A stretch of 64,000 nt of DNA from Plasmodiophora brassicae (GCA_036867785.1 CP145425.1:620001-684000), one strand, 5' to 3'; shown: positions 17,157 through 59,700, counted from the stretch's first letter. Notes: generated from the letters alone by a model not told the origin. A program made the numbers and translations.

Positions 17157-17697
17157 CCCCAAACTCCGTGGATGACATACTATGTCATGCACAGGCCTCT
17201 TTAAAGTAGAACATTGCCCTATTCGTACTATTCTAGCTTAAATAGTACACCTTGGGACGCTTAGAATAGTACATCTAGTACATCTACAGAATTCTGTCCA
17301 GTAGACGCCCTAGAATCGATCTAAGCTTAGTGTTTATCAATGCAGCAGGCCCTAGAAACGATTTGCCACATCCTGGAGTGCGCGGTATTGCTTGGCATAC
17401 ATGAATATTCCTTCCAGAACGAAATCTGTCATGGCGGCGCAATAGGCATTCCGGCGATAGGACATTAAGGAGAAGTCACCCTCGACCCGACTAGTGGTTG
17501 GCATCACGGGATACAGTTGTTGAGCCGTCATCCTCTGTTGCACAGTCGGGTTCAAATACATCCAAGCGGACCAAGCCCGTGTCACCGGCAGGTTCTTTGT
17601 CACGATCAGGCAAGCTGATGCAACGAACGCTTTGACGGACTGGCGAAGTCCGTCGCGGGGTTCGGGATTTATTCAGTTATCACAGAATAGTCCTCTT

Positions 17698-22864: not shown

Positions 22865-22904
22865 CGCGAACACACCGGTAGACGGACAGGAAACGGGACG
22901 GCAG

Positions 22905-23018
22905 GAACGGAGCGGGCGGAACGGAGCGGGCGGAACGGAGCGGGCGGAACGGAGCGGGCGGAACGGAGCGGGCGGAACGGAGCGGGCGGAACGGAGCGGG
23001 CGGAACGGGGCGGGCGGG
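22905..23018. repeat. 14-bp tandem repeat (GGAACGGAGCGGGC)n in the S1 5' leader
   Basis: About 8 copies read directly. Confidence 0.9.
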
Positions 23019-38700: not shown

Positions 38701-39470
38701 CGCGACGCCCGAGTACTTGGTCACGGACGGTGGTTCACACTTCACTGCAGAAGTCATGGAGGAGCTTACCCGGCTACGAGATGTTCAGCATCACATCACA
38801 ACGGCATATTGTCCGTGGGCTAACGGCACGGTGGAACGCGCGAACCGCACTGTGCTTAACGTCATGCGATCAGTCCTGAACGAGGCCCAGATTAGCACGC
38901 ACAACTGGCCGTACTAATGTCCTGTTGTTCAGCATGTCATCAACCACACACCAAGTCGACGACTCAACGGCTACGCGCCATTCACGGTTATCACGGGACG
39001 TTCACCGGAAAGCCCGCTTGACCAGATCTGGGACCCAGTAGAAAGACAGTGTCGACGAGTACCACCGGAGGGATTCGCCAAATACGTGCAGATGTTGCAA
39101 GAGACTCTCGACGAGATCCACAAGGCCGTCGATGAAGCGAAGGCACAGCGACATGCTGCCAATGTTAAGCAACGACGACGACGACTCAAGAGTAGTCCCT
39201 ACGAATCGTTCATCGTTGGCGACTACGTGCTCAATGCCAAACCGGTACCAGGTCCTGCGCAGAAGCTGATAGCGCAGTGGCAGGGACCGTATCGAGTTGT
39301 CAAGCAAATCAGCGAGCAAGTGTATGAGTTGGAGAACCCACTATCTGAACGACGCTTCAACGCACACACGCAACGAATTCGACGATATGCAGACGCTGAC
39401 TTGAACATGACCGTCGATTTGAAGCGCCACCTCCAACACACTGACCAGCATTTGATTGTTGACGACCTAT

Positions 39471-42400
39471 TGAAACGACGAAATCAGAGTGAGATATTTT
39501 GATGGATATAGAGCGAAGATATTGGGTGTGTCGGGCAACGTCGTAGACGTGAGACGCGGTGCACGTTACATCATCGCGGGCGGCGCTGACACCAGCCTTG
39601 CGGAGTGCGTGGCAGCGTCGGTGTGCTGCACGAGTGTGCTGCTGGATATGGAGTTGGACCCGCCCCCTCCAGCAGCACACGTCCTGGGACTGGTGTCGGT
39701 GATGCCCGCCAGGATAAGGTTCGCATGAAACGAAGTGCTGAGAGCGGGCTTCGTCAGGTAATCGGCGGCCATCTCGGCGGACGGGCACTTATGAACCACA
39801 ACCAGACCGGCCTCGACAGCCTCGCGGGTGTAATGAAACTGCACCTCGATATCTTTCGTGCGACCGTACATCCGACGATATCCGGACCATGCCTTCGCGC
39901 CTTGGTTATCCTCGTACACGATCGTCGGACCGGGACGCGGGAAGCCTATCTCGTCCAGGAACGTTCGGATCCAGGCAAGCTGCCGGGTAACGGCGCACAA
40001 CGATTTAATCTCGGCCTGCGTTGATGATAAACTGACCTTAACGGCGCCTAGGTCCTGGCGTCGTGACTGCCAATGAACGGGGCCGCCGGCCATCAGAATG
40101 ACATGGCCGGAACGGGACCGGCGTGTATCCGGATCGGAGGCCCAGTCAGCATCGGCGTATGCGAGCAAGAGATCCTGCGGTTGACGCTCGTAACGAATGC
40201 CGCGCGTCGTCGTACCCGCGAGGTACTTCAGAACACGTTGGCCCGCGCGCCAGTGAGAGATGCCGGGGTTTGACGAGAACTGGGCCAGCACGTTCGTTAT
40301 GTACGCGATGTCGGGACGGCAGCGATGGGCGAGCCATGTCAGACATCCGATGAGCTTCAGGTATGGTTTGTTCGCCATTTCGTCCCGTTCGATGTCCGAT
40401 TGGGGACTCATCGACTTGGTCAGATGAACGCCGGGTTGATGCGGCGTGTCGACCGGATGACAATTGGACATGTTGAAGTCGTCGAGTACCTTCTCAATGT
40501 ACTCAGCTTGATCGAGTGTGATGGCGCCTGTGTCAGGGTCGCGTCGGATCCGCATGCCGAGTAATGTCGATGGTTCACCTTGATCAGTGATCTCGGCCAT
40601 GGCAGAGAGCTGGACGAGAAGCGATTCTGCGAACACGACGTCGTTGTACGCCAGCAGGCCGTCGTCGGTGTGCACAGACATGACCATGAACTTGCCATCA
40701 CGGTTGTACCCGAAGACGCACGGGTCCGTGATGATCGTTTCGAAACCGAGCGAGAACAGCATATCGCGGAGCGTCTTGTACCAACGTTCGGCGCCTTGTT
40801 TTGTACCATAAAGAGCCTTCTTGAGTTGACGAACTCGATACGGGACATGGTGGTCAGTAAAGCCGTCCGGCTGGCGGATGTAGACATCGTGGAGCATGTC
40901 GGCGTTCAGATATGCGGCTACCCAGTCGACCTGTCGAAGATGCAGGTTGTACTGAGCTGCGAGCGCTAGAATCACGAAGAACGCGGTGGCACGGGCGGTC
41001 GGCGCGAAGTTGTCGTCGAAGTCGATGCCGCGGCGCTGTCTGAACCCTTGAGCGCAGAGACGAGCGCTGAACTTACGGATGCCACCGTCGTCACTGAGCG
41101 AAGACTTTGAGAAGGACAATAATGAAGTGGATGTATTACGTACGGCGTGTGCGGCGGACGTTACAGTGGCGACGTAGTCGCCGACGGTGTAACGGTTGCC
41201 AACGCCGGCGGGCACGGAGTCGCGGAGTGCGTGACGGCGTTCACGTGCTGCAGGCATGTGCTGCAGGTCGTAGTGGATACGTTGTTCGACAGACTTGACC
41301 CGGAACACCCACTTGGCGCCAACAGCGATCTTACCTTTCGGCAGGTCGATGAGCGGGCCGAACGTGTCCTTGGAGTCCAGCGTTGCCATCTGGGTGAGGG
41401 CAGCGTCCCACCAGTGGCCGGCGAACGACGATGAGAGGGCCTCGGCCATCGTATTAGGAACAGGAACATTGATCGCTTTCAGACTCGAGAGATCGGGTCA
41501 TGGTAGAGCTGCTGGGTCGATTGGCGCCTGTATCTTAACGCGGCAGGCGGAGACAATGCCACCACGAGCGGCCGGTCGATGGGATCGGATGGCCTCGCGG
41601 ATGAGCCGGTGTTCTTCGACCTGTCGCCAGTGGTGAATCTGGCGGCGCGATGGGCGTGGCGGACGTTGAATGGGGGCTGTCAGCACTGGGTGCTAGAACC
41701 AGGCGTCCACCGTTGACGCCCACCGGGTGGAGGACCGGTTTGCCTTCGCGGGACCCTTCCACCATTCGCCCGGTGGTTGACGGTGACGTGTAGATCGACG
41801 AGGATGCGGCATGTCCAGAACATCGTCGTCGGCGACGACATCAGCCGCAATATCCATGTCAGCAGGAGAGTCATCACCATCGTTGGCGGCATCAGCCGCA
41901 ATATCCATGTCAGCAGGAGAATCAGCACCAGCGTCGTTGCCGGCCTCCTGATGGTCCTTAACGTCGGCAGCAACGATGCTGGATGCGCGGTTGCCGTCGT
42001 GGTTATCAGCGTCGACAGCAGCGTCGTTACCAGAATGACCGACGTTGCCGGCGAGATCAGGCAGGGGAGCATGATGGGTATGCGCAGATGGTTGAAGACG
42101 ATCAGATGACGGAGACGACACGACATTGGATGACACCGGAACGGGGGATGCTGATGGTAGCGGTGGGATAACGGCGTCGGCAGCAGCGGGTGATGATGTA
42201 AGAACGGCAACGGTGGACGGGGAACTGGCGGTGAGTACGGGCGCGGCCTGTGAAGACTCGAGACCAGAGTTCGACCGCCCGAAGCCGAAGGTGAACGACG
42301 TTTCCAGGAATTCGGCCGTCGTGCTCTCGAATGTGTCACCTCGTTCGACGTCATAGAAGCGCCATGCCTTCATCCCTGGCGTAAAGCCGATGAATACAGC

Positions 42401-44910
42401 GCGAACGCGACGATGATCCAGCTTGGTCGTCTTCTTCGAAGAGGGGTGAGGGCGCATGGCGTACGCGTCGCAGCCGTAGACGCGCAGGGAAGAGACATCA
42501 GGTTTAGCGAAGCGAGCCGCCTGGAACGATGAGCGACGCCCCGGAAGGACGGATCGAGGATGGACATTGTAGAGGACGGCAGAATACGAGAGTGACCAGG
42601 GCCAGGTGAAATCGGGCATACGCGCGTGACACCGGATAGCGCCTTCGATACAGCACAGGCTGTAGTTGACAATTTCGGCTCGGCCGTTCTGCTCGGGCGT
42701 ATACGGAACCGACTTGCGATGAAGGATGCCGGACTCATTGTAGAACGTAACGCATACCTTGGAATTAAACTCGCCCCCGCCGTCTGTTTGGAAGTCGGAA
42801 ATGCCACGTCCCTCCTGGTTGCGGAACGTGCTTCGTAGTGCTTGATGACATCGAGGGCGTCCGATTTCCTCGACGGAGCAGGTAGACGGTCAGGTAGCTC
42901 GTTGAATCATCCAGCATGGTCTGGTAATACTCGAAACCGCCAATACCGACGACAGGCCACCGCCCGGAGAGGTCACTATGGACGAGATCGCCAACGTGAC
43001 GTGCTCGCGACGTACTGGGAGGGAATGATGAGCGCTTGCCTTTGGTGAGAAGACAGGCCTCGCATGGACATCGATCCTGAAGCTTGGGAATGGGCTGATC
43101 GAAGGCCATTCCCCGACAGCGGCGCTGCAGGAGACGCAGATTGACGTAGCCGAGAGGTCCAACGCGCGCGTGCCAAAGGGCGGGCGATGCGGAGGCGACT
43201 GTGGCGGCGCGGCAGGACACGCTGGGCGCACCCGATGAATAAATTTCAGTTGACGATGGGGCAGCGGGAGCACGCAGGGCGATCCTGTAGAGATTATCGG
43301 CTCCTCGCGTGCTGACCGCTAGCGGGGTCCCGACAGGGGACGTCCAGTTGTCCTTGGAATAGATGGTCGCGTTGGGCCCATCGAAGACGATCTTGTGCCC
43401 GGATCGGGTGAGCTGTCCAACGGAGACGAGCGCTTGGCCGAGTCGTGGGACGTGCAGCGAATCGATAGGCGCCATCTGGGACTGATCAGCGCCCAATGAC
43501 GTCACGCCACGTCCGGAAGTGGTCGTACGAGACAGGTCTGCAAGTTCAACAGTCGGTCCGGCGACATGTCGGTAAGCGCCGAGATGCTCGCGCAGGGGCG
43601 TCATTGTGGTGGAACATCCAGAATCGAGCAGGCCGACGGAACTGTTGTCTACGGCGGGGTGACGGGCAGACATGGCGCGAACCGGGACGTACTGATCAGG
43701 TTGCGACGATGTATTCGATGTCGTCCGCCACAACGAGCGCTGTAGGAAACAGTTGCCATTCGTGTACGGCTTCCTCGAGGTCGTATGTAGGACGCACAGT
43801 CCATCGCGTTCGGGAGCCTTGATCGGGTGTGCGGTGGCGCTTGCACGGTTCGCCGTTGCGAACGATATCTCCCGGTCAGCATGAGCCTCTTGAATGCGCT
43901 GCTCTTCTGATGTGAGCGTGGACACGACCTCAGTGACAGTAGGCCGCGGTTCGAGTCCACGACTGTGCAGGTTGGATGCGGCCGTGTCCAATTCTGATGA
44001 GGCGTTGCCAGCCATCAGGACAGCCAGGAAGGAATCCGTCATGTGAAGCATGTCGTTCGGGACTGTTGTACGGAAACGTTGGGCAGCGGCTTGCAGACGG
44101 GCCGCGTACAAGGCGACCGATTCACCGGCTTGCTGTCGAACACTGAACAAATCTTTAGAAGCACGAATGACAGACGAAAACGTGCAGGGTCGCAGCATGC
44201 GGAAGAGAGCGCGCCAGCATTGCGCCGATGTACCGGCGTACAGCAAGTTGTAGCCGATCAGAACGGTCTTGTCGACCATCTGAAACAAGAGTATCTCCCG
44301 AGCAGTTGCCTCCAGATCCGCGTCCACATTGTCGGGGATACTCGGAGTCGGCGATCCGTCCAGGTCGATGCCGACAATTCCAGCGAATCCACGGTTGGTA
44401 AACCAAGACGCGGCGGCGGGCGCCCAAGCGGCAAACGATTCGTGCTTGCCGTCGAACCGAGGCGGAGGCACGCGATCTGTACCTGGACGCACTACGCCGT
44501 CCACAATGGTTGGGCGAGGCTGCGTCGTCGGCGTCGTGGCGATGCAGGAGTACGATGCGGTTTGCTGTCGCAGGAATGCGATGCGCGCGATCTTCTCCTG
44601 TCGCTCGGCCTCAGCGAGCTGCGCGTCGAGATCTTGGACATCTGACTCCGCCGTTCGGCCGCGATCGCCATGACGTTGGACGCGAGCGAGACGCCCAGAG
44701 CGCGGTTACGACTGTTAATCTGAAACGACGAAATCAGAGTGAGATTTATTGATGGATATAGAGCGAAGATATTGGGTGTGACGGGCAACGTCGTAGACGT
44801 GAGACGCGCTGCACGTTACATCATCGCGGGCGGCGCTGACACCAGACTTTCGGAGTGCGTGGCAGCGTCGGTGTGCTGCACGAGTGTGCTGCTGGATATG
44901 GAGTTCGACA
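39471..44910 (-). mobile_element. Ty1/Copia LTR retrotransposon (frameshifted): Gag, protease, integrase, RT, RNase H
   Basis: 190-bp LTRs 39471-39660 and 44721-44910 with a few differences; PPT GGAGGGGGCG. LLDSGCS, VHSDL, WVFRVK..ARLCAQGF, KALYGTKQ, HTDD, YADADWA, YEDNQ; integrase upstream of RT. Confidence 0.95.
41108..41291 (-). mobile_element. Solo LTR (184 bp) of a related Copia family inside the Copia RT
   Basis: TG...CA ends, 5-bp TSD GACTT (41103-41107, 41292-41296). Begins TGTCGAAC on the minus strand like the host LTR. Confidence 0.85.
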
Positions 44911-47900
44911 ACCACTGAGGTCTGCTCGAAGGGCCTTGCCGTTCCGATCATGAAACTGCACGGCGAACACGGGACATTGACGCTGTACAACATGCGATTC
45001 TACATCTCGACGATGATTGCGAAGACGCTGCTCGGAAACCCGATTCTCACGGCTATGGGAATTGATCCCAAACAGCAGTTGGAGTCGCTGATGTTAACGA
45101 ACGTTGGGGTCATGCAGTTCGATGCTGACTCGCTCGAGACGGTGGAGAGGGTGACGGCCAAGATGATCGAACTGAGCGCCAACCACGGATGCAACCCCTA
45201 CGCGAACGGCGAAGGCGAGCCGACGCGCAGTGAGATCGATCTCGGAAAGGTTGATCCGTCTGGTATCAGCAAGGCTGTCAACGACATGATCAAGCAGGCT
45301 AAGAAGAATGGCATTTCGAGGCAAGGCTTGAGGCGACTGCGGAAGTTCTTGAACAAGCACATGAACGAATTCCGTACGACGCTGGGGTCTGACCCACCTG
45401 TGGACGTGGAACCATTGAGGACGGACCTGAAGGACGGTGCCACACCATATCGGTGCAAGCCGCGCATGTACAATCCGAAGCAAAAGGAGTTCTTGACGGA
45501 CATGATACGGATGCTGAAGGACAACGGCCTGATCTTTGCGAACATGAAACTCGAAGTGGGCCAGTCCTGTCCTGATCGTCAAGAAGCCACACAGGGACGG
45601 CTACCGACTATGCGTCGACCTTCGACAGGTGAACCTGCGATCTGAGCCAACTGTCTGGCCCATGCCGAACATCGAGGCGGGCGCCCGCAAACTCGAAGGT
45701 ATGTCGTGTTTCTTCAGCTTGGATGCCTTCAAGGGATTCTGGTTGATGCCTCTGGACAAATCTTGTCAAGAGATGTTTTCGTTCATGACAGACGATTCGG
45801 TTTGGACACCTACACGAAGCATCCAGGGCGGACTGAACACGGTCCCGCAATTCCAAGCAAGGATGGTGAACATCTTCGACGACCTGATGGATCGAATGAT
45901 GGTCTGGATTGATGATCTGCTGGGATTCGCGAAGACGGAGGCCGAGCTTCTGGAACTGCTGGCCAACGTATTCGAACGGGCACGCGAAGTCGGACTGAAG
46001 TTCAACCCTACGAAATGCACGATCTTCGCCAGGGAGCTGGTCTGGTGCGGGAAGATCTACTCTGGCAACGGCATTCGACATGACCCGGAACGGATAGCAG
46101 CTCTGACAAGCATGCCGGAGCCGAAGACGGTTAAAGACCTGCAGCAACTGATGTGGGCGGTGGGATGGATGCGCACGAGCATCCCGGATTACCCGTACAT
46201 CATCGAGCCACTACAGGAGGTCGTTGACCGGGCGAATGAGGAGCTGAAACGAACGAAGTCTAGTTCTTATGCCTCATTGACGGTGGACGCGATGGGCTGG
46301 TCTGAACGACAACGAGAAGGATTCGAGAAGCTGCGGGCGGTGCTGGTCGAACACGTGCAACTGGCCTACCCCAAGAAGGATTTCCAGACCTGCCTCTTCA
46401 CGGACGCAAGCGAATTCGCATGGTCAGCGGTCGTGACTCAGATTCCAATGGAGGACATCGTATTGCCGATCAGTGAGCAACGACATGAACCGCTGGCGTT
46501 CTACGGGAAACGCTTCGACAACACGCAGCTACGGTGGCCTATCATCGAGAAAGAGGCAGCGGCGATCGTCCCGGCGACTACGCGAGGCGATTTCTTGCTG
46601 CAAACCGGACGTGAGTTCCTGCTCTACTGCGATCATCGGAATCTACGATACATCTTCAACAACGACATGGAGATGAAGAAGCACACAGCCGCAAAGCTGG
46701 AGCGGTGGTCCGTTCATCTGCAGGATTCCGGTACAAAATGGTGGACATCAGCGGGGAGGACAATGCGTGGGCAGATCTACTGACGCGATGGGGCGCGGGT
46801 CGAATCGCGCTTACGTGTCGGGCAACTCGAGTCATGTCCATGGAAGCCCTGCGAGTAACCCCCATGGCGCACGACGGATTCGAATGGCCTCGTGAAGCCG
46901 ACATACGACAATCCCAGAAGCTGCTGACCGACGACGAGAAGGCAGCATTCAAGGCGCAATGGGATGATCGCGACAAACTGTCTCTGGACAGGTGTTAATT
47001 CCAAGCCATGATGACGCAGAGACGTTACGACTACGGATCCTGGTCGTGGCACACTGCGGCAGCGCTATGCATCGTGGAGGAACAACCACCAAAGAAGCGG
47101 TTATGAGACGATTCCGCTGGGCTGGAGTGGAGGAGCACGTGCAACAAATGTGCTATCAGTGCCTGCACTGCGTCACCACTCGAGGAGGAGAACGGGCTCC
47201 GCGGCCTCTGGGTCAGGCTGTTCACGGTCACGAAAGGTTTCAGGTGCTGCATATGGACTACATGTACGCCGAGCCGGTTCGCGGAGCGGACCACGACTAC
47301 AAGTATATATTGCTGCTCAAGGACGACTTCTCGGGACTCGTCCGCCTGATTCCTTGCACGAACGCGACGGCCCGGACTGCAGCTGATTCCCTGATGGCGT
47401 GGATCGCTGACTTCGGGACGCCAGAGATCCTGGTTACCGATGACGGTTCACATTTCACCGCTGAGGTGATGGAGGATTTGAGTCGGCTACGTCACGTTGC
47501 GCATCACATCACGTTGGCGTACTGTCCATGGTCGAATGGAACGGTCGAACGGGCGAATGGAACGGTCGTGGAGATGCTGAGGAGCCTACTGAATGAGAAC
47601 CTGATCGACACCCACAACTGGCCGTACGCATGTCAGCTGGTGCAGCATGCCATGAACCATGCGCCTTCAAGGCGTCACGGAGGTCATGCACCGGTGACGG
47701 CGGCGTTTGGCATCCTCTAGACCTGATCTGGGACTTGAAGGCTAGCGATTGGCGACCTGTGAATCCTGCGACTATTACTCAACACATCGAGAAGATGAAG
47801 GACGATTTCGACAACATACACAAGGATGTCGAGATGGGCAAAGAGAAGCGGCATCCAGCCAATGTCCAGCAGCGCAACAGGCAGCTACGTCCTGGAGACG

Positions 47901-49558
47901 ATGAAGCATTCATTCCAGGTGACTACGTCTTGTGCGCACGACCGAACATGGGCGCGGGGAACAAACTGATCGCCAAGTGGAATGGCCCGTTCCGTTTGCT
48001 GCAGCGACTGAAAGATCAAGTGTACTTGCTGTACGATCCTCTTCACGAGAAGGAGTTTCGGGCGCACATCCAACGAATCAGACGATATGCTGATGGGAAG
48101 TTGAACATGAAGGCGACGTGAAGAAGCATCTTCAGCACTCGAATCACAAGCTCTTGGTGGAGAATCTAGCTGACTGCCGATACAATGCGAGCGAGAAGCG
48201 AGTCGAAATCAAAGTGCTCTGGGAAGGATTCGAGGGATCGGACGCCACATGGGAACCGGCGGACATCATAATCGAGGACGTGCCGACGATGGCTCGTGAT
48301 CTGTATGACCGACTGGGAGATGACCACCCTCAGGCGGAGGAGTTGCGAACACTGTTGAACTCGGCGGCGACGAACGGGAATCACCAGCCCGCCTCGAAAC
48401 GACGTCAAGCAAAAGGAGCGCGACGTCAGGCCGGGACTAAACGACAACGGAATTGACGATATGATGATGGACCGGCTGGAACATGGTAAAGTAGCTGGTC
48501 GAAGGTTGCTAACTGTACATAGGCAACGAGGAACAACGACGCGAAAACGGAAAGGACGTCGATTGGACGCACGGTGCGCGGAGCACTGGCGTGGGCATTC
48601 GGCCCGAACCACTGGGCATGGGACTCAGTCTGAGAACATTCAGCAAATTGGCCATTGAATGGGATCATGTACCAAATGGAAACCAACGGTACGGAACTCG
48701 CATATGCATGGGGAAACACTCCACCACAGTCGGATCCTAAAGATTGGACTTCGGCTAACCCTGGTAGTCCCGAATAACGGACGCCAGTCATCGGACTCCT
48801 AAAGATTGGGCTTCGGTGAACCGATATCGGATGGGAACGGAACTAACTACGGATGCACATGGCTGGACGCGGTGTGGGTATTCGTGCTGGTTGCGAGCGG
48901 AACTTACTGGACGCAGTAGTGAGCTCACAACCGGCGCTGATGTAGTGTGTTGGACGCAACTCACAGAATCAGTGCATGGGGAACGGGAACTGGAATTGGA
49001 TGAACTGGGTGCGAATTGGGAACTGTGGGAATTGGAAATGGTGCCTTAATGTCGGCGTATGACTTGTCGTACACCACATGGGGACGGTTGGATGGATCAC
49101 TGGGAAATATGGAATGTGTGGTGACTCGCTGGAGTGATTTGGAATGGATGGGTGCCTGTAACGAGGTGACCACCTCCCACGTGGGGGGTGGATGTCGTCA
49201 GTATGGCTGAGAACTGTTAGCACTATGCTGACATGGTCCGGGCAACTCCGTCCTTATTGCGATGAGTCTAATCTCAAGAAACGGGCGTGACAGTAACGCC
49301 TACGTGTCGCACGAAAGCAGCAACGAGCCTACGTATCTCTACGTCTGCATCCAGGTCATGTTCGGAAAAGTGCAGTGTAGACGGTGGAGCAGTGCAGCAT
49401 GCCCTGTCGCAGCCAGAGATACCAAGAACAGCATCTAGGAGAGGCAGCCCTAAGACCAGGGAGAGTCCGTACGGCATGCGGGAACGCCGGACGGGAGGAG
49501 GAGAAGGATTAGGAGATCTGGGAACGAGGACGCTGAGGTTCTCTATACACGATCTACA
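44911..49558 (+). mobile_element. Ty3/Gypsy family W1, second copy: 5'-truncated at protease, frameshifted, 3' LTR 49376-49558
   Basis: Near-identical to 11992-16693 with small indels and substitutions. Confidence 0.95.
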
Positions 49559-49720
49559 CAGTGCGGGCACGGTGGCCTATTCGGGCAGGACGCAATAAAA
49601 TGCCCAACTTCGCGACAATAGTGGCAAGCCAGGGGTTGTGCCCTTGCATCACCGCCAGCGTTGATGGCGGCGATTGGGTATTTCGACTCAAGATGAGCTG
49701 TGACGACAGAGCAAGATGTG

Positions 49721-52171
49721 TCAACCACACGGATTGACCGACTGAGGTCGGTCCGCGCCGTGGACGTTTATTGTACCTAGTGCGCTACGAAGGAGCCCAA
49801 TTTGGTGCCGGCTGAGTCGCCAACACGACTCAGTCGTGACATAATAGTCCCCTTTTAGCCGCACCGGGAACGGGCTGCGGGCTTGTCTGGGTGGAAGCAT
49901 TTGGTGAGGCCTAGCAAGAACTGCTTCATCATTAGGCGACAGTCTGTACTCCAGTCGACGAGTCAGGGCGTCAGGTGTCCAATGAACGAAACCAACTTCG
50001 CTAAGGAATTGGAGTGAACGAATCTGTCGTCGATGTAGCTTGTGGGCAAACGCACGTGCGGCGGCGTCCAGGAACATGAGATCGAGGTTGAGAAACGCGA
50101 TCGAGGTTGATGAGGCCTGGTCATCCTCTAGCGTAGCAAAAGGTGCAAAGAAGGACTCGGCGGGCGCATTCAAGGGCGGGGGCTCCGCAGAGGCGCTCGT
50201 ACACAGCTGTGCTATTGGAAAATACGGCCACCCAACTAGGATCCAGGTCAGGGCGACAACGGTTGCGAACATCAGAAGATTGAGGCTGTGGCCGTCTCGG
50301 AAGCCATCATTGGAGGGAGGCGGCGGGAGAGGCCGTCTGGCCCCTCGTCGCACGGGGCCCCAGTTCCGGAAGGAGGACATAAGGGGCGTGGACTCGGAGC
50401 CTGAACGGGGCAATGATAAGAGATCGGCGCGGCTGGGGGCAACAGTATCATTGAAGGCGGCGACCCCCGGGATGCTACCATAATCGAATGCGGAAGGGCG
50501 CGGCAACGTGTCAAGTGATTCAGCTGAAGGCCGGATGGCACACGCAGGCGCAGGAACGCTTCGTGCAGGAGGTGAGACCCCAGCTGAGAGACTATCCCCG
50601 CGCTTTACTGTTGCAAATGGTCCCGCCGAAGAGACGAAGGACCCAGACTCATGGACGTCTCCTGTACGGCGTGACATCCCCACGAGGGTATCTCCGCGGC
50701 GCTGTAGGCGGCGCTGACGCCAATCGATATCTGGGTTTGTATCCGCCAACCAAGGCAGCCCAAGAATGACAGGGTGTTGAGGCGAGTGGATCATGTTCAG
50801 GACGACGTCGCTGTCGAAACATTCGTCGACGGTAGCACGTAGCGGGACGGTTTCCTGAGTTACTGGAGACAGGTGTCGCCCGTCGATGACGCGAACAGGA
50901 ATGGCACGCGATTTAGAGCGAACCGGTATTTCGTGGTGACGACAGAACGACCAGTCGATGAAGTTGGAAGTCGCACCACAGTCTAACAGGGCGAAGGTGT
51001 TGACACGGCGTGAGCCGATAACGAGGCATACCGATACCAACAGATGCGGTATTGAGGGAGACGTCATAAGGAACAGATCAGTGACGTGGAGAGGGTTGCC
51101 GGACCGCTCGGGACACAGCGATGAGCGGTGGCCAACCTTACGACAGTGCGGGCACGGTGGCCTCTTCGGGCAGGACGCAATAAAATGCCCAACTTCGCGA
51201 CAATAGTGGCAAGCCAGGGGTTGTGTCCTTGCATCACCGCCAGCGTTGATGGCGGCGATTGGGTATTTCGACTCAAGATGAGCCGCCATCTCGAGAATTT
51301 TGTCGTAGTCTCTGAAGTTGTACAAGAACAGCGCTTCGGAGAGCGCAGGGTTCAGCGAGAGGCGGAACTTTTCCGCCAAGCGGGCCGGACTGAGTCTGTA
51401 CAATGGGTCAAGTCGTTGAAGGTCCTTGTACAAGCGTTGGAATGCCAGTGCGTGGTGAGCGACACCTGCAGTCTGCTTCAGGTTGTCAAACTTCGCTTCA
51501 ACCTGCTTGAACGAAGGTCCCGGGAAGTCATGGAGCAGGACGGACGAAACGTCCGCCATAGACGCGTCCGCAGGCAAGTCGAGGTAAGTCTCAAGAGCCT
51601 GACCTTGCAAGGCTGTCGTTAAGACACATTGCACTTCGCCGGATAGAGGACTTGTAGACGTTAACGACGTCTGGGTGATCCGAGAGAACGCAGTCAACCA
51701 GCGCGTCGTCGACAGACCATCCCTTCCCGAAAAACGCGGAATGTCTTGTGACTGGACAACAATAGACGTTAAGGGTGGGCCCGGAGACACCCGTGGCGCC
51801 GGCACCCGAGCCCCAACGGACGAAGCGCCAATATGCTGCGACGTTGGGGAGACAGGGTCATGCCGAGGCGCGCCGCCGGGGTCCTGCAGAGACGTCGAGG
51901 CGGCAGAAACGTGTAGGGACGATAAGGCAGGCGGGGAGTGACGGTCCGAAGAGGACAGAGAGTCGTCGGGCCAATCGGCAGCGGTACTATTGAGCGAATG
52001 CGGGGTGAGCGGTCGTGCAGGGAGATGATTCGCCAGTGGCCGAACACCACGCGCGAAGTGCAGCTGCGACAGGGGACCGAGAGCAAAATCCGACGCACCC
52101 GCAACATCCGGATTCGCGGACGATGGGACGTCGTCCGTCAATGACGGAATCGACCCATCGCCTCCTGCCAT
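49721..52171 (-). CDS. S2 Gag-protease-TM polyprotein (~816 aa), running into the 3' LTR
   Basis: IPRFSG, two CCHC knuckles, [21 protein letters not shown], hydrophobic LNLLMFATVVALTWILVGW. Confidence 0.88.
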   Translation of the reverse strand: MAGGDGSIPSLTDDVPSSANPDVAGASDFALGPLSQLHFARGVRPLANHLPARPLTPHSLNSTAADWPDDSLSSSDRHSPPALSSLHVSAASTSLQDPGGAPRHDPVSPTSQHIGASSVGARVPAPRVSPGPPLTSIVVQSQDIPRFSGRDGLSTTRWLTAFSRITQTSLTSTSPLSGEVQCVLTTALQGQALETYLDLPADASMADVSSVLLHDFPGPSFKQVEAKFDNLKQTAGVAHHALAFQRLYKDLQRLDPLYRLSPARLAEKFRLSLNPALSEALFLYNFRDYDKILEMAAHLESKYPIAAINAGGDARTQPLACHYCREVGHFIASCPKRPPCPHCRKVGHRSSLCPERSGNPLHVTDLFLMTSPSIPHLLVSVCLVIGSRRVNTFALLDCGATSNFIDWSFCRHHEIPVRSKSRAIPVRVIDGRHLSPVTQETVPLRATVDECFDSDVVLNMIHSPQHPVILGLPWLADTNPDIDWRQRRLQRRGDTLVGMSRRTGDVHESGSFVSSAGPFATVKRGDSLSAGVSPPARSVPAPACAIRPSAESLDTLPRPSAFDYGSIPGVAAFNDTVAPSRADLLSLPRSGSESTPLMSSFRNWGPVRRGARRPLPPPPSNDGFRDGHSLNLLMFATVVALTWILVGWPYFPIAQLCTSASAEPPPLNAPAESFFAPFATLEDDQASSTSIAFLNLDLMFLDAAARAFAHKLHRRQIRSLQFLSEVGFVHWTPDALTRRLEYRLSPNDEAVLARPHQMLPPRQARSPFPVRLKGDYYVTTESCWRLSRHQIGLLRSALGTINVHGADRPQSVNPCG

Positions 52172-52199
52172 GAATGCAATACAATACCAACGATAGAAG

Positions 52200-52395
52200 C
52201 GGTACGGCACGATACGATACGGCACAATACGATACGATACGGCACAATACGATACGATACGGCACAATACGATTCGATACGGCACAATACGATTCGATAC
52301 GACACAATACGATACGATACGGCACAATACGATACGGTACGGCACAATACGATACGAGTCGAGACAATACGATACGATACGGCACAATACGAGTC
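52200..52395. repeat. Pentamer-based tandem repeat (GATAC/GGCAC/AATAC; ~20-bp unit) in the S2 5' leader
   Basis: Read directly; only about 2 units in the older copy (53495-53535). Confidence 0.9.
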
Positions 52396-53715
52396 GAGAC
52401 AAGACGACGACAGAAGGTTAGTCGGTCAAAATGTGACGACAGAGCAAGATGTGTCAACCACACGGATTGACCGACTGAGGTCGGTCCGCGCCGTGGACGT
52501 TTATTGTACCTAGTGCGCTACGAAGGAGCCCAATTTGGTGCCGGCTGAGTCGCCAACACGACTCAGTCGTGACATGAGCCGCCATCTCGAGAATTTTGTC
52601 GTGGTCTCTGAAGTTGCAGAAGAACAGCGCTTCGGAGAGCGCAGGGTTCAACGAGAGGCGGAACTTTTCCGCCAAGCGGGCCGGATTGAGTCTGTACAAT
52701 GGGTCAAGTCGTTGAAGGTCCTTGTACAAGCGTTGGAATGCCAGTGCGTGGTGAGCGACACCTGGGGTCTGCTTTAGGTTGTCAAACTTCGCTTCAACCT
52801 GCTTGAACGAAGGGCCCGGGAAGTCATGGAGCAGGACCGACGCTACGTCCGCCATAGACGCGTCCGCAGGCAAGTCGAGGTAAGTCTCAAGGGCCTGACC
52901 TTGCAAGGCTATCGTTAAGACACATTGCACATCGCCGGATAGAGGACTTGTAGACGTTAACGACGTCTGGGTGATCCGAGAGAACGCAGTCAACCAACGC
53001 GTCGTCGACAGACCATCGCTTCCCGAAAAACGCGGAATGTCTTGTGACTGGACAACAATAGACGTTAAGGGTGGGCCCGGAGACACCCGTGGCGCTGGCA
53101 CCCGAGCCCCAACGGACGAAGCGCCAATATGCTGCGACGTCGAGGAGACAGGGTCATGCCGAGGCGCGCCGCCGGGGTCCTGCAGAGACGTCGAGGCGGC
53201 AGAAACGTGTAGGGACGATAAGGCAGGCGGGGAGTGACGGTCTGAAGGGGACAGAGAGTCGTCGGGCCAATCGGCAGCGGTACTATTGAGCGAAGGCGGG
53301 GTGAGCGGTCGTGCAGGGAGATGATTCGCCAGTGGCAGAACACCCCGCGCGAAGTGCATCTGCGACAGGGGACCGAGAGCAAAATCCGACGCACCCGCAA
53401 CATCCGGATTCACGGACGATGGGACGTCGTCCGCCAATGACGGAATCGACCCATCGCCTCCTGCCATGAATGCAATACAATACCAACGATAGAAACGGTA
53501 CGGCACGGTACGATACGGCACAATACGATACGAGTCGAGACAAGACGACGACAGAAGGTTAGTCGGTCAAAATGTGAAGACAGAGCAAGATGAGTCAACC
53601 ACACGGATTGACCGACTGAGGTCGGTCCGCGCCGTGGACGTTTATTGTACCTATTGCGCTACGAAGGAGCCCAATTTGGTGCCGGCTGAGTCGCCAACAC
53701 GACTCAGTCGTGACA

Positions 53716-56700
53716 CTATCCTCCTACAAACTCCATTTGAGACGCATGGCAGCCGACCGATTAGATGATCATCTAAAGAACAACATCAAAGAAAGCAAAT
53801 GGGGAGACTATCCCAACCGACAACGATATCGAGACGACGCCAAAAACATAGCATACGACAGCAGAAAAATCCATACCCTCCCCCTGCTGAATCGCGCCCG
53901 CTTGGGATACTGCGGCGCCCGGCAGCACCTCTATAACATTAGCCAAGACATGGCCGGAGAGTCATCTCAATGCCAGCACTGCGGGAACGCAACCGAAGCC
54001 ATTGAGCATCAACTCCTGCACTGCACCGCATTGCGCCACAAACTACAACAAGAACGCGACGTATACGCGAGACTATGGAAAAACTCCTTCACAGAAGCCC
54101 TCTGGAAATATGAAGACGAGATGACTAACATTCTCAAGTCTGCAAAGGACAAAAAATGCATGTACATCTAACAACACGCCAAGACCATCAACCCCACCAA
54201 GAACGAAGTACAAATCCGTGCTGATCTCGCGGTGCAGGTTACCCTGCGCCGCCAAGGCCACAGGGCCTAAAATTAATGTTATGGGTGCTGTAGTCAGTCT
54301 CGAGCCAATATCCCAATGAGCTTTATCATCCATCCCATCCACGGCGTCGACCATGCCATCACAGTGGAGCTAAATCCGTGCAGGCCCCCTTTCCTCAGGA
54401 CAGCAGGACCCCCTCCTCAGGACAGCAGCATCTTGAGGTCGGGCACGAGACGCTAAATATAGAGCCCCGCTCTACACTGCCTTTCTCCGAACTCGTGCCC
54501 GGAACCAGCAACATCATCATCGTGCCCGGCGAAGATAGAGCAGACGGCGAAGGGTAGTGTGAGACTCGGAATCACCCAGTACTCACTAAAAACCACCTTG
54601 TAACCCCATGGGAAAAATCGGTGGAAAATCCATTTACGGACACCCTTGCCACAGCCAGCCGAGATGGAGGTACATGAACTGACGAAAACATCGGCGATGG
54701 GGCGCTCGACCCAGATGGGTGGAGCCCGGTCCATATACACCCGAAAAGTATCATTCACCTAGCTCAGCGGCCGACACAGATGCGTGGACCCCCAGCGCAA
54801 CAGAGTCTCGATAGTCAGAACGCCCTGACCAGAGTCAAATCTGCGGTGACGAGTGACTTAACGGATGCTGCCGAATGTCCCGTGACACAACGATATTGAT
54901 GAGGCCACCTGTGTGACTACCCATCGAATAACGTGATGGCCTCTCAGAGGAGCGCCATAAACCGTGGTTGCATGATCGCATAACAACCAGGTTGACTGAT
55001 TCCATGACTTGCATGCAAACCAGTTGCAATGGTCCCATTTATTTGAGAACCGGGCCCACAATGATTGAGGACCATGATCATGATCATCCTCGTATCGTCC
55101 AGTGCAGAACCGATACGGTTGCGTCGTCCTTCCGGTCCCGACGGTACTGAATAAGCGTGTTTGACGGTTGACTCCTGTACAACCACAAACCGTAAACACT
55201 GCACAGGCATTGTCATTCATACCTAGTGCCGTCGTCGCTGCTTCCGCTTTGTCTGGCGTTGCGCGTTACTCGCTCGCTTTGGTGCTGGGGCGAGTCGTCG
55301 ACTTGGTGTGTGGTTGATGACATGCTGGACAACAGGACATAAGTACGGCCAGTTGTGCGTGCTAATCTGGGCCTCGTTCAGGACTGATCGCATGACGTTG
55401 AGCACCGTGCGGTTCGCGCGTTCCACCGTGCCGTTAGCCCACGGACAATATGCCGTTGTGATGTGATGCTGAACATCTCGTAGCCGGGTAAGCTCCTCCA
55501 TGACTTCTGCAGTGAAGTGTGAACCACCGTCCGTGACCAAGTACTCGGGCGTCGCGAAATCGGCAATCCACTGATTCAGAGCTTCCGCAGCAACACGACT
55601 TGTCGCTTCAGCTGATGGAATCAGACGAACATAACCACTGAAGTCGTCCTTCAAGAGCAGAATATACTTGTACTTGTGGTCCGCGCCCCTGACAGGCTCC
55701 ACATAGAGATAGTCCATGGTGAGTACGTCGAACGGCTGGTGACCATGTAATGCTTCACCGAGCGGCCGAGGAACTTTCTTACCACCGCGTGTCGTGATGC
55801 AACGCAAGCATTGCTGACGCATCGCTTCAATGTCCTGATTGATCTTGGTCCAGAAGAAGCGCTCCGTGATCATCTGCTTGGTTACTTCCGACGCACGATG
55901 ACCAGCGCTTGCGCAATGGCCAATGACCAGGATCCGAAGGCGTAGACTCTTGCAGTCTTGATGACAAGGAATAAGAACGGCTTTGCTCTCGTTCTTCCAC
56001 AGACGATCAGCTTCATCGAAGTACACCCCGTCCTCGATCTTCTCCTCTCGTGACAGAAAGCGTTGCGAATCGCGGATCTCCTTTTCAGTCGGCCAGCTGA
56101 ATTCAGGATGTTGCCGAGGAGTGACTCGCAAATCGTCCATCTGCATGGTGCGCGTTGCTCTACATGACAGTGCGATGCGACCAGCTCCCCATCGGGTCAG
56201 AAGGTCTGCCCATACGTTGTCGGTTCCAGCGATCTCCTTCATCTTGAGGCTGAAGCCTTGTAGATGCAATGCCCATCGCTCTAGCTTCTGCGCCGTATGC
56301 TTCTTGATCTCCGAGTTCCGGTCGAAGATGAACGTCAGATTGCGATGATCGCAGTAGAGCAGGAACTCCCGGGATGTCTGCAGTAGGAAATCACCGCGCT
56401 GCGTAGCGTTGATGATCGCGGCTGCCTCCTTCTCGATCGTGGGCCATCTGATCTCTGCACCTGAGAAGCGCTTGCCGTAGAATGCGAGAGGTTCATGTCG
56501 TTGTTCGCATACAGGCAGGTTGACGTCTTCCATCGGGATCTGCGTAACCACCGCCGACCATGCTGCATCACTGGCGTCCGTGAACAGACAGGTCTGATGA
56601 TCCTCCTTCGGAAATGCCAGCTGAACGTGTTGAATCAAAGCGAAGCGCACGTCCTCGAATGACTTGCTGTGCTGATCGGACCAGCCCAGTGCGTCCAGCG

Positions 56701-59700
56701 AGACACATGATGGCGATGATGATCGAATGCGCTTGAGCTCCTCGTTGGCAATGTCAAGCAGCTCTTGCAGCGGTCGTACTATACTTGCGTAGCCGGGTAC
56801 GTGGGTACGCATCCAGTTGGCCGCCCACAGAAACTGCTGCAGGTCGTTAGCGGTCTTCGGGCGTGGCATGCTGGTCAACGCCTCGATACGTTCTGGATCA
56901 TGCCGAACTCCTTCTCGCGAGTATATCCTGCCGCACCACTTCAACTCGCGAGCGAACAACGTGCACTTGTTCGGGTTCAGCTTCAGGTTGCGCTCGCGAC
57001 ACCGCTCCTACACTCGTGTCAGTTGATGAAGAAGGTCTTCCTCCGACCTCGCGAATCCGAGTATGTCGTCAATCCAGATGAGCAAATTCTCCTTCATGTC
57101 GTCGAAGATAGCTGCCATTCGGCCGTGGAACTGAACCGCCGAATTCATTTCCCCTTGAATGCTCCTCGTAGGCGTGAATACAGCGTCGTCCGTCATGAAG
57201 CTGAAGATTTCCTGACACTCCTTAGCCAAAGGCATCAACCAGAAGCCCTTGAAAGCATCAATCGTGAAGAAACAAGTCATGCCGGAGAGCTTGCGCGTAA
57301 CAGCCTCAACATTCGGCATCGGCCATGCTGTGGGAACACACCGTGCGTTCACTTGGCGAAGATCGACACATAGACGATAGCCATCGCCTTTCGGTTTCTT
57401 GACGACTAGGACTGGACTTGCCCATCGCGAGTTCATATTCATGTAGACAAGACCGTTCTCCTTCAGCATACTGATCATGTCGTCTAGGAACTCCTTCTGC
57501 TTAGGATTGTAGAACCGAGGCTTGCACCGGTACGGAGTAGCGTCCTGCTTGAGTTGTGTTACCATCGGTTCGACATCGACAGGCTTGTCTTGACCCAGAC
57601 GCGTGCGGAATTCGTTCAGATGTCGTCGCAAGATCAATCGTAGCTTAGCAACTCCTTGACGAGACATGCCATTGAGACGTGCTTGGTGTACCATCCGGTT
57701 ACAAGAAGCTTCGATCTCGTGAGCATTGATCGGTCCCAAGTCAACTTCACTTGACGACGGTTCCATAGAGTCCGACTCTGGTACTGGGTAGTGATCTCCT
57801 CGCAACGTTGCCATTCTCGCGGCAATTCGCCTCACGGTCTCGATACAATCGACATCGACTGCGGCACATCCTGAGAGCGTATCCATCTCGGTGCATCCTG
57901 ATGCGATGATGTTCTCGAGTTGCTGACGCGGATTGATGCCGAGAGTCGTTAGTAGATTGTCACCGAACAGGATCACAGGAATCTCGTCGCAAACGTAGTA
58001 GGTCACATGATACAGCGTCAAATTGCCAACTTCGGTCTCCAGGATCGTGATTGGAACTTGCACCGTGCGCGTTATGGTTCCGATAACTTTGCCTTCTGCT
58101 GAGGTGACGTCTCGTTGTTGAACGTCGCGGAACGTGGCTTCTTTCAACTGGACAGCGATAGGGCCAGGCATGATGTTGCCTCCGCGGCAGCCGGAATCCA
58201 ACTCGTACGGAACACGTATGCCTTCCAGCACTACGCGTTGTAGATCATCGACAGTCTCAGCGTACCCGTTAGTCTTCTGGATCTTTATCGGGCGATGGTT
58301 GGCGCGAACAAGCTCATAGCACTTCTCCTTGGACGGCTTCGTCGGACACTCCTTTAAACTGTGCGACCCCGCACAGTTCCAACACGTGATCTTGGCGCCT
58401 TTACGTTCAGCTGCAGTGTCGCGTGTCCGCTTCGTGCTCGACGTTGTCTCATTCTCGGCCGTCGACACGCTAGGGGGTATGAACTGTACCGTTGGTTCTC
58501 CAGGCGACTTGACCTTCGTAGCAGGTGTCTGCTGCTGACGCAGGTGAGCGGGCTTCGGACGGGTCGGCCGATTCAGAGGAGGAGGACGATGTTCCCGAAC
58601 GCGTCATCCCCCCGACGTGATCGCCACCTGATACTTGTGGCTGCGGTCGTTCAGACGAAGCTTGGCGCAGGTCTTCTTGGATACGCCACCAATCATGGCT
58701 GAACCGTTGACAGCGACCTTGTGCATGATCCACTCCTGCACCTGCTTCATAATCGCCTTCAAGTCCCCTTCGCGCTTGGACTTGTCCTCCTTGACCCATT
58801 GCCTTGTGAAGTCACGTAGCCTCCACGGTTGCAACGAATCAACCAAAAAACGGCCAAGGGCTCTACGCCCACCGACCGTTTCGCGCAAGTGCTGCCAGCC
58901 TCGTCTCCACTGGATTTCAGTCATGCGATCCAGGATCGACTGCACTTGATCCCTCAGAGTCGGGAGGCTGGTGTCCATCGACAGCTCACTCGCGATTTTG
59001 GCCTCAATGTCTTGGGTCGTCAGGCCATGACTCGCTGGAAGCTTTTTGATCTGCGCTTCGATCCATCCTTCCAGGTCGTCATCTGTCAGCAGGTCGACAT
59101 TGTTCAGGAATAGGTGATTCAACGCGATGCAGGTCAGCTGCGGCGTGGTAAAGCAGAATCGTATCGCTTGAGGCTTGATCCTCGCGGCTTCCGGACGGTT
59201 GCCCTCACGGTCGATAACCACTGCACAATATCGATCGTACTGCTCTTTCAACTTCAAGATGGATGTGGAGTCCAACTTCGCGACCCGTGGCAGGATGCTG
59301 ACATCCGCGTCCTTGACACCAATATGCTCGTCCGTGCTGGACGTCGTCTCCGATGCCATGGCGCAGCGTCTCGAACGTGGTGCGGGACGAAGTCAGACGT
59401 GTGGGATCAGAGAGTGCGCACTGTAGTCAGTCTCGAGCCAATATCCCAATGAGCTTTATCATCCATCCCATCCACGGCGTCGACCATGCCATCACAGTGG
59501 AGCTAAATCCGTGCAGGCCCCCTTTCCTCAGGACAGCAGGACGCCAGGACCCCCTCCTCAGGACAGCAGCATCTTGAGGTCGGGCACGAGACGCTAAATA
59601 TAGAGCCCCGCTCTACAGTGCCCGACAGCCCAGTAAGTGTCGTTTAGGAGTTTTCTTAGGGGATCACTTGAGCAGGTTGGAAGGCGAAGGGGCGCCTGTA

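What the first reader, a model, noticed from the sequence alone, without database searches (positions are those of the whole stretch)
44697..44720. Copia PBS complementary to the anticodon arm of tRNA-Asn (half-tRNA priming with a non-Met tRNA)
Seen: directly inside the 5' LTR the plus strand reads AGAGCGCGGT-TACGA-CTGTTAA-TC. This looks like a 5-nt anticodon stem strand, a canonical CT-GTT-AA loop and two bases of the 3' stem, with a D-arm-like AGAGCG upstream. Known: Drosophila copia and yeast Ty5 prime from the 5' half of initiator tRNA-Met cut in the anticodon stem. Inference: the same mechanism using tRNA-Asn(GUU), which would be unusual.
Basis: partly seen in the sequence, partly recalled or inferred. 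Interest (0 to 1): 0.72.

Follow-up and report, generated by a model that had tools for sequence, protein, structure and literature searches.

The report
Copia primer site matching tRNA-Asn
A jumping gene (Ty1/copia retrotransposon) of the clubroot protist Plasmodiophora brassicae appears to start its DNA copying from a cut half of an asparagine tRNA, a priming trick already described with other tRNAs in flies, yeasts, plants and rust fungi.

Summary
The sequence is there as described. 44697-44720 lies directly inside the 5' LTR (44721-44910) of a minus-strand Ty1/copia element (39471-44910). Its reverse-transcriptase frame is 99% identical to a Plasmodiophora brassicae protein.

The 14 bases next to the LTR (44707-44720, TACGACTGTTAATC) equal positions 27-40 of real tRNA-Asn(GTT) genes. 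That span is the 5' strand of the anticodon stem, the loop and two bases of the 3' strand. It occurs in 25 of 119 tRNA-Asn genes fetched from metagenomes.

Two other priming modes fail. No CCA-complementary primer site abuts the LTR, and self-priming complementarity is no better than shuffles.

Real tRNA-Asn genes read AGAGC-R-N-ACGA, while the window has four extra bases; 0 of 120 genes match beyond 14 bases.

The decisive test could not be run: no P. brassicae tRNA-Asn sequence was reachable with these tools. Half-tRNA-Asn priming is therefore likely (about 0.65) but unproven.

It is not unusual in kind. Priming from the anticodon region of non-Met tRNAs is in print for Candida (Arg), the plant Bianca lineage (Ile) and rust fungi (Tyr, Ile, Asp, and "Asn-GTT").

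Verdict: a new member of a known kind, of modest interest.

The parts
44721..44910 (-). 5' LTR (190 nt). In element sense it reads TGTCGAAC...GTCGTTTCA, with TATATCC and AATAAA motifs near its 3' end.
   Evidence: Direct repeat with 39471-39659. Sequence and 8 of 190 differences between the LTRs. Outer edge 44910/44911 and inner edge 44721 are marked by contigs that run on into other sequence.
44707..44720 (-). Core primer-binding site, 14 nt (element sense GATTAACAGTCGTA). Its complement TACGACTGTTAATC equals tRNA-Asn(GTT) positions 27-40.
   Evidence: Abuts the LTR's terminal CA with no gap. The exact 14-mer is present in 25 of 119 tRNA-Asn genes from metagenome contigs. Contigs of 4 public runs that span it show no difference here except T>A at 44707, in one minor contig seen in two of the runs.
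44703..44706 (-). Four bases (plus strand CGGT) with no counterpart in tRNA-Asn genes. Either a spacer or bulge, or an insertion.
   Evidence: Real tRNA-Asn genes go from AGAGC-R26 straight to N27-ACGA. 0 of 120 contain the window's 15-mer or longer.
44697..44702 (-). AGAGCG on the plus strand, equal to tRNA-Asn positions 21-26 but displaced by 4 nt. Possibly a second contact with the primer, or a remnant of a longer primer site.
   Evidence: AGAGCG stands at positions 21-26 in 34 of 119 tRNA-Asn genes, and 6 of 119 carry it contiguous with the 14-mer. AGAGCG occurs 31 times in 128,000 window positions, so P is about 0.002 for any of 10 offsets.
42765..44705 (-). Open frame for gag, protease and the N-terminal part of integrase (646 aa, stop to stop). 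The first ATG (44671-44669) is out of this frame in the window copy.
   Evidence: Pfam Pol_BBD 2.6e-09 and gag_pre-integrs 9.8e-05. Translations. Contigs of all 4 runs carry one more base behind 44666.
41693..42889 (-). Integrase C-terminal part (398 aa), in a different frame from the upstream frame.
   Evidence: Pfam SH3_retrovirus 1.9e-17. Frame coordinates.
39566..41497 (-). Frame for reverse transcriptase (RVT_2) and the rest of pol (643 aa).
   Evidence: Pfam RVT_2 1.1e-46. 99% identity to a protein named PBRA_009602 [Plasmodiophora brassicae].
39661..39671 (-). Polypurine tract (element sense GGAGGGGGCGG), directly upstream of the 3' LTR.
   Evidence: Sequence.
39471..39660 (-). 3' LTR. 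Its first base in element sense is G, not T.

Best explanation
44707-44720 is the minus-strand primer-binding site of a Ty1/copia retrotransposon of Plasmodiophora brassicae.

In the element's RNA, the 14 nt directly after the 5' LTR (GAUUAACAGUCGUA) pair with positions 27-40 of tRNA-Asn(GUU). That span is the 5' strand of the anticodon stem, the whole anticodon loop and the first two bases of the 3' strand.

A free 3'-OH is needed exactly at the LTR border. The primer must therefore be a 5' fragment of about 40 nt, cut inside the 3' strand of the anticodon stem. That is the half-tRNA mechanism shown for Drosophila copia and yeast Ty5 with initiator tRNA-Met, here with an elongator tRNA.

Shown: the anatomy, the position, the identity to natural tRNA-Asn anticodon arms, and the lack of the alternatives tested.

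Inferred: that the host's own tRNA-Asn has this arm, that it is cleaved, and that the fragment primes.

The complementarity stops at position 27. This would fit plus-strand strong-stop synthesis halting at a modified G26 (recalled knowledge of m2,2G26 as a block to reverse transcriptase; not tested).
For: 1. Element anatomy. There is an LTR pair. The minus-strand frames carry Pol_BBD, gag_pre-integrs and SH3_retrovirus upstream of RVT_2, which is the copia order. A polypurine tract lies before the 3' LTR.

2. Position. The site abuts the terminal CA of the 5' LTR with no gap. That inner edge is confirmed by a contig with other sequence before 44721.

3. Match to real tRNA genes. The metagenome pattern scan returned 120 loci, and ARAGORN calls tRNA-Asn(gtt) in 115 of them. 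25 of 119 carry the whole 14-mer at positions 27-40. The pattern itself fixed positions 28-42, so only position 27 and the upstream bases were free.

4. Chance. The generic anticodon-arm shape occurs at only 0.3-0.7% of window positions.

5. Self-priming fails. The longest complementarity between the primer site and the LTR is 6 nt, reached or exceeded in 840 of 2000 shuffles.

6. Stability among copies. The site is unchanged in the main contigs of 4 of 4 public runs laid.

7. Precedent. Half or internal tRNA primers are reported only in the Copia superfamily, and with several tRNAs (PMC6317226 passages; PMC10886601 section 3.6; PMC4139406 passages).
Against: - The host's tRNA-Asn was never seen. 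No genome is held. The window has no tRNA gene and no Rfam match at gathering scores. The 120 metagenome loci have no similarity to the window.
- Anticodon stems of tRNA-Asn vary. Only 25 of 119 genes in a sample already selected for ACGA...TCGT have T at position 27.
- Complementarity is only 14 nt.
- Rfam finds no partial tRNA match at the site, even at E up to 10. For 14 nt this is expected.
- The copies compared are near-identical, so the constancy of the site shows little selection. One minor contig differs at 44707, which is position 27.
- The window copy itself is defective, so function is inferred for the family, not for this copy.
Confidence: 0.65

Rival explanations
1. Chance resemblance. 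The bases next to the LTR do bind a primer, but it is another host RNA (another tRNA's internal region or a non-tRNA RNA). The likeness to a tRNA-Asn anticodon arm is coincidental.
For: The host tRNA set was not available. The generic arm shape is not vanishingly rare, at 0.3-0.7% per position and register, and several registers would have been accepted. The match is only 14 nt. No Rfam tRNA match at the site.
Against: The 14-mer is not merely arm-shaped. It is identical to positions 27-40 of 25 of 119 real tRNA-Asn genes. It ends at the LTR border in the 3' strand of the anticodon stem, as described for half-tRNA primers of Copia elements. A second tRNA-Asn piece (AGAGCG, positions 21-26) lies 4 nt further on, with P about 0.002 for 10 offsets.
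Confidence: 0.2
2. A classical primer site for the 3' end of a whole tRNA lies further in. TGGGCGTCTCGC starts 22 nt from the LTR (plus strand 44676-44698 region), and the LTR-proximal bases are only a spacer.
For: It is the first TGG after the LTR in element sense.
Against: A 22-nt gap is far beyond the 2-10 bp gaps described (PMC4139406 passage). The tRNA 3' end it would imply has G where tRNAs keep A58 and C61; these invariants are recalled, though all 120 fetched tRNAs read GTTCRA at positions 53-58 because the pattern required it. Not tested against host tRNAs.
Confidence: 0.05
3. Self-priming of the Tf1 type. The 5' end of the element's own transcript folds back on the primer site and is cut to give the primer.
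For: Self-priming is predicted for some plant Copia (TAR) and for many Gypsy elements (PMC6317226 passages).
Against: The longest complementarity between the 24 nt after the LTR and the 190-nt LTR is 6 nt. 840 of 2000 shuffled primer sites do as well or better.
Confidence: 0.03
4. The site is a decayed primer site of a dead family. It no longer matches any primer, and the present sequence carries no function.
For: The window copy is broken. The ATG is out of frame, there are frame changes and stops in pol, and there is no target-site duplication. A 4-nt interruption lies between the two tRNA-like pieces.
Against: The family is multi-copy, with several different flanks at the LTR edge. The same site sequence stands in the main contigs of 4 of 4 runs. 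The 14-nt core has no mismatch to natural tRNA-Asn arms.
Confidence: 0.07

Closest known systems
Drosophila copia and yeast Ty5 (half-molecule initiator tRNA-Met primer)
   Same: Same superfamily. The primer site abuts the 5' LTR, lacks the CCA complement, and pairs with the anticodon stem-loop, so a cleaved 5' tRNA fragment must prime. Sources: PMC10275265 passage, bioRxiv 10.1101/2025.04.25.647736 passages, PMC10886601 section 3.6. The original papers, Kikuchi 1986 and Ke 1999, were not held and are known to me only by citation and recall.
   Different: The tRNA here would be elongator tRNA-Asn(GUU), not initiator tRNA-Met. The host is a rhizarian protist. Priming is inferred here, not shown biochemically.
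Rust-fungus Copia families and Helenus TRIMs (anticodon loop of tRNA-Tyr, -Ile, -Asp, -iMet; 'tRNA-Asn-GTT chosen once')
   Same: [quoted passage not shown] One passage names tRNA-Asn-GTT as a primer type (PMC10886601 section 3.6, read whole).
   Different: The hosts are fungi. That paper calls what seems to be one class 'tRNA-Asp' in one paragraph and 'tRNA-Asn-GTT' in another. Its Figure 3 and supplements were not visible, so I could not compare sequences or cleavage positions.
Plant Ty1/copia lineages Bianca (1/2 tRNA-Ile) and Osser, Bryco, Gymco-II (1/2 tRNA-Met)
   Same: The half-molecule tRNA is described as generated by cleavage in the anticodon stem. The trait is lineage-specific and found exclusively in Ty1/copia (PMC6317226 passages).
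   Different: A different tRNA. In that survey tRNA-Asn is listed among the tRNAs whose 3' ends most putative primer sites match (2% of elements); the half-molecule primers named there are Met and Ile only. Additional files 1 and 5 were not visible.
[quoted passage not shown]
   Same: The primer site is homologous to an internal region of a non-Met tRNA, in several LTR families (PMC4139406 passages).
   Different: A different tRNA and host. The extent of complementarity there is described as 'extensive' for some families. Here it is 14 nt, plus a displaced 6 nt.
Ty1 extended primer contacts (boxes complementary to the T and D arms of tRNAiMet)
   Same: Would resemble the displaced AGAGCG piece, if that is a second contact with the D-arm side of the primer.
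   Different: Recalled from memory only, with no call. Ty1 uses the 3' end of a whole tRNA. The second contact here is speculative.

Membership tests
Ty1/copia (Pseudoviridae-type) LTR retrotransposon | Two direct LTRs with TG...CA ends | tested here: met
   190-nt LTRs differing at 8 of 190 positions. The 5' LTR reads TG...CA. The 3' LTR starts with GG instead of TG.
Ty1/copia (Pseudoviridae-type) LTR retrotransposon | Integrase upstream of an RVT_2-type reverse transcriptase | tested here: met
   In that order on the minus strand: Pol_BBD, gag_pre-integrs, SH3_retrovirus, then RVT_2 (1.1e-46). The rve core itself did not reach E 0.001, probably because of the frame break.
Ty1/copia (Pseudoviridae-type) LTR retrotransposon | 5-bp target-site duplication | tested here: not met
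   The flanks are CCTAT (39466-39470) and ACCAC (44911-44915). They belong to two different Gypsy fragments. This points to a rearranged or recombinant copy, not to a different class.
Half-tRNA (anticodon stem-loop) primed Copia elements | Primer site abuts the 5' LTR and has no complement of CCA | tested here: met
   The element-sense sequence after ...TTTCA is GATTAACAGTCG..., and the first TGG comes 22 nt further on.
Half-tRNA (anticodon stem-loop) primed Copia elements | [quoted passage not shown] | tested here: inconclusive
   Identical to positions 27-40 of 25 of 119 tRNA-Asn(GTT) genes from metagenome contigs. None of these is from the host, and no host genome is held.
Half-tRNA (anticodon stem-loop) primed Copia elements | A cleaved 5' tRNA fragment exists and is attached to minus-strand strong-stop DNA | not testable with these tools
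   All runs laid are kept as contigs, which cannot show short RNAs or ends.
Half-tRNA (anticodon stem-loop) primed Copia elements | Primer site conserved among copies and related families | tested here: inconclusive
   The main contigs of 4 of 4 runs are unchanged over 44707-44720. One minor contig has T>A at 44707. All are near-identical copies.
Self-priming LTR elements (Tf1 type) | Start of the transcript complementary to the primer site (about 11 nt) | tested here: not met
   The best LTR-to-site complementarity is 6 nt, equalled or exceeded in 840 of 2000 shuffles.
Classical 3'-end tRNA primed LTR elements | TGG... complementary to the tRNA 3' CCA end within a few bases of the LTR | tested here: not met
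   No TGG in the first 21 nt after the LTR.

The most novel reading that the evidence does not exclude
The primer site is bipartite. The 14-nt core (tRNA-Asn positions 27-40) and the displaced CGCTCT (complement of positions 21-26) both pair with the tRNA-Asn 5' half, across a 4-nt bulge in the template. That would give an extended primer-template contact, of the kind known for Ty1, in a half-tRNA-primed element. It would also be the first inferred half-tRNA-Asn priming in Rhizaria.
Probability: 0.15. Interest if true: 0.45.

Novelty: new member of a known kind. Interest (0 to 1): 0.25.

Why it matters
If confirmed, it would extend half-tRNA priming with an elongator tRNA to a rhizarian protist. 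That adds to the evidence that switching the primer tRNA while keeping the anticodon-arm cleavage mechanism is a recurrent trait of the Copia superfamily. It would also predict a specific, abundant 5' tRNA-Asn fragment of about 40 nt in P. brassicae. It opens no long-standing question, because the mechanism and its use with non-Met tRNAs are already described.

Tried and rejected
- Whole genome of the window: none is held, so the host's tRNA genes could not be scanned.
- ARAGORN on the window found 0 tRNA genes. Rfam at gathering scores found 0 matches in the window.
- Rfam at E up to 10 on 44600-44800 gave only 4 chance-level snoRNA or lncRNA matches and no tRNA.
- Full-text search for the 13-mer in DNA or RNA letters found 1 paper, an unrelated insect RNAi primer.
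- A paper search for Plasmodiophora tRNA-derived small RNAs listed nothing relevant. A search for P. brassicae retrotransposon papers gave no description of this family in the 15 listed.
- Searches for a tRNA-Asn primer site in retrotransposons led only to PMC6317226 and PMC10886601.
- Ke et al. 1999 (PMC1369817) is not held.
- The search for related loci with the reverse-transcriptase frame found no relative in viral contigs or in genome contigs.
- blastn of the 120 metagenome loci against the window gave no hit, so none is recognisably from the host.
- Sequencing runs: no RNA holder is listed, and some rows are only guessed to be RNA. Contigs cannot show transcript starts, small RNAs or primer junctions.
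- The minor 152-nt contig with 11 other letters over 44667-44745 could not be read base by base, so it does not settle whether the site is conserved.
- Self-priming and a distal TGG primer site were considered and rejected (and reasoning given under the rivals).
- Supplements and figures of PMC6317226 and PMC10886601, which hold the actual primer-site alignments, were not visible.

Full report
**What is there**

The plus strand at 44697-44720 reads AGAGCGCGGTTACGACTGTTAATC and is followed at 44721 by TGAAACGAC.... The stretch 44721-44909 is a direct repeat of 39471-39659, 96% identical. I extend both copies by one base, to 39660 and 44910, so that the minus-strand 5' LTR reads TG...CA. The two 190-nt LTRs then differ at 8 of 190 positions.

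Between the LTRs, the long frames lie on the minus strand and carry these Pfam families:

| Frame (minus strand) | Pfam families |
|---|---|
| 42765-44705 | Pol_BBD, gag_pre-integrs |
| 41693-42889 | SH3_retrovirus |
| 39566-41497 | RVT_2 (1.1e-46) |

Integrase lies before an RVT_2 reverse transcriptase, which is the Ty1/copia order. A polypurine tract (element sense GGAGGGGGCGG) lies directly before the left LTR. The element therefore runs right to left. The right LTR is the 5' LTR, and the finding occupies the primer-binding position with no gap.

The reverse-transcriptase frame is 99% identical to a protein that a source names PBRA_009602 [Plasmodiophora brassicae]. The next relatives are at 56% and 55%.

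**Independent check of the borders and of copy number**

Of the 24 listed public runs, 20 hold half or more of the sampled words of 44400-44950, from 13 studies. I laid contigs of four runs on 44300-45000.

- Several contigs stop matching behind 44910 and run on with different sequences.
- Others reach 44911 from unrelated sequence.
- One contig has unrelated sequence before 44721.

Both LTR edges are therefore real, and the family has several insertions or solo LTRs.

Across the primer site the main contigs of all four runs agree with the window. The only listed difference inside 44697-44720 is T>A at 44707. It sits in a minor 152-nt contig, seen in two runs at about 5-7% of the depth, that has 11 other letters over 44667-44745. 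I could not read that contig base by base.

All four runs carry one more base behind 44666. In the window copy the first ATG (44671-44669) meets a stop after 59 codons and is out of the long frame. Pol is also interrupted. This copy is defective.

It also lacks a target-site duplication: the flanks are CCTAT and ACCAC. The flanks are parts of two different Ty3/gypsy fragments. The copy is therefore rearranged or recombinant.

**Is the tRNA-Asn likeness real?**

No tRNA gene lies in the window, and no Rfam family reaches its gathering score. No genome is held for the window.

I therefore asked whether tRNA-Asn genes with this anticodon arm exist at all. I scanned the metagenome contigs for the 13 bases 44708-44720, continued by two bases of the predicted 3' stem strand, a gap, and the T-loop motif.

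| Test on the fetched loci | Result |
|---|---|
| ARAGORN calls tRNA-Asn(gtt) | 115 of 120 (the other five include contig-end truncations) |
| Whole 14-mer TACGACTGTTAATC at positions 27-40 | 25 of 119 with enough upstream sequence |
| Window's 15-mer or anything longer | 0 of 120 |
| Positions 21-26 read AGAGCA | 60 of 119 |
| Positions 21-26 read AGAGCG | 34 of 119 |
| AGAGCG contiguous with the 14-mer | 6 of 119 |

The pattern fixed positions 28-42, so only position 27 and the bases upstream of it were free to vary. In real genes, positions 21-26 are followed at once by N27-ACGA. In the window the same two pieces are separated by four extra bases (CGGT).

The "D-arm" is out of register and cannot belong to one colinear tRNA. 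A tRNA colinear with all 24 bases would also violate the usual invariants (A14, G18-G19, A21; recalled, not from a call).

**Chance**

- A generic arm shape occurs at 0.3% of window positions (Watson-Crick pairs only) to 0.7% (G-U allowed).
- AGAGCG occurs 31 times in 128,000 positions, about 0.2% for any of ten offsets.
- Both figures are post hoc. Together with the exact identity to real genes, they make pure coincidence the less likely reading.

**Alternatives**

- Self-priming fails. The best complementarity between the site and the LTR is 6 nt, matched or beaten by 840 of 2000 shuffles.
- A classical CCA-complementary site is absent next to the LTR. The first TGG lies 22 nt in, and the 3' end it would imply does not look like a tRNA (recalled invariants A58 and C61).
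- Rfam finds no partial tRNA at the site, even at E up to 10. For 14 nt this says little.

**Mechanism proposed**

A 5' fragment of tRNA-Asn(GUU), ending at about position 40, anneals to the 14 nt after U5 and primes minus-strand synthesis, as in copia and Ty5.

- Shown: position, anatomy, identity to natural tRNA-Asn arms, and failure of two alternatives.
- Inferred: the host tRNA has this arm, it is cleaved, and it primes.
- The stop of complementarity at position 27 would fit a block at a modified G26 during plus-strand strong-stop synthesis (recalled; untested).
- The displaced AGAGCG may be a remnant of a longer site split by a 4-nt insertion, a second contact across a bulge, or chance.

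**What could not be done**

- None of the 120 loci resembles the window.
- The reverse-transcriptase frame finds no relative in viral contigs or genome contigs.
- The caps for metagenome scans, run searches and read laying were used.

**Comparison with what is known**

- Half-tRNA priming is established for copia and Ty5 (PMC10275265 passage; 10.1101/2025.04.25.647736 passages).
- Non-Met cases are in print:
  - 1/2 tRNA-Ile in the plant Bianca lineage, with half-tRNAs found exclusively in Ty1/copia (PMC6317226 passages);
- That last paper names the class inconsistently (Asp in one place, Asn in another), and its figure was not visible.
- My searches for a tRNA-Asn primer site in retrotransposons and for P. 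brassicae retrotransposons turned up no description of this element.

**Verdict**

This is a new member of a known kind. Interest is 0.25.

Noticed in passing
window 10491-16693: Ty3/gypsy chromovirus on the plus strand. It has 100% identical 183-nt LTRs (TGTAG...CTACA) and one uninterrupted 1623-aa frame carrying RVT_1, RNase H, integrase and a chromodomain. It looks very young. The sequence after its 5' LTR (AAACCGGTTTTAGCC...) also lacks a TGG start.
   Followed up: partly
window 16945-26069 and 54288-59545: Two more minus-strand Ty3/gypsy elements, each with LTRs 99% identical. The window is a nest of LTR elements.
   Followed up: partly
window 39466-39470 and 44911-44915: The copia copy has no target-site duplication (CCTAT and ACCAC). 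Its flanks are parts of two different Gypsy fragments. Contigs of other copies read ...GGGTGATGACAAG before 44911, which is not what lies left of the element. The copy is therefore recombinant or rearranged.
   Followed up: partly
window 44666/44667: Contigs of all four runs laid carry one more base here than the window. In the window the first ATG of the element is out of the long gag-pol frame.
   Followed up: yes
window 44667-44745: A minor 152-nt contig appears in two runs, with 11 other letters over this span. Only T>A at 44707 is listed. It may be a diverged subfamily or a junction to other sequence.
   Followed up: no
window 52169-52425: Tandem array with spacing of 10 nt between shifted copies (ACGATACGATACGGCACAAT...), inside a repeat-rich stretch with further dispersed repeats at 49558-53724.
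   Followed up: no
window 61309-62400: Array of 37 listed copies with 24-nt spacing (occasionally 27 or 51), lying inside long frames on both strands (60360-63008 minus, 61371-62729 plus). It may be a repeat-containing protein or a minisatellite.
   Followed up: no
loci L013, L038, L074, L036, L098, L009: Six metagenome tRNA-Asn genes carry AGAGCG contiguous with TACGACTGTTAATC (positions 21-40). Several have no encoded CCA, and L009 and L013 are followed by T-runs, as eukaryotic nuclear tRNA genes are (my inference). Their organisms are unknown.
   Followed up: partly
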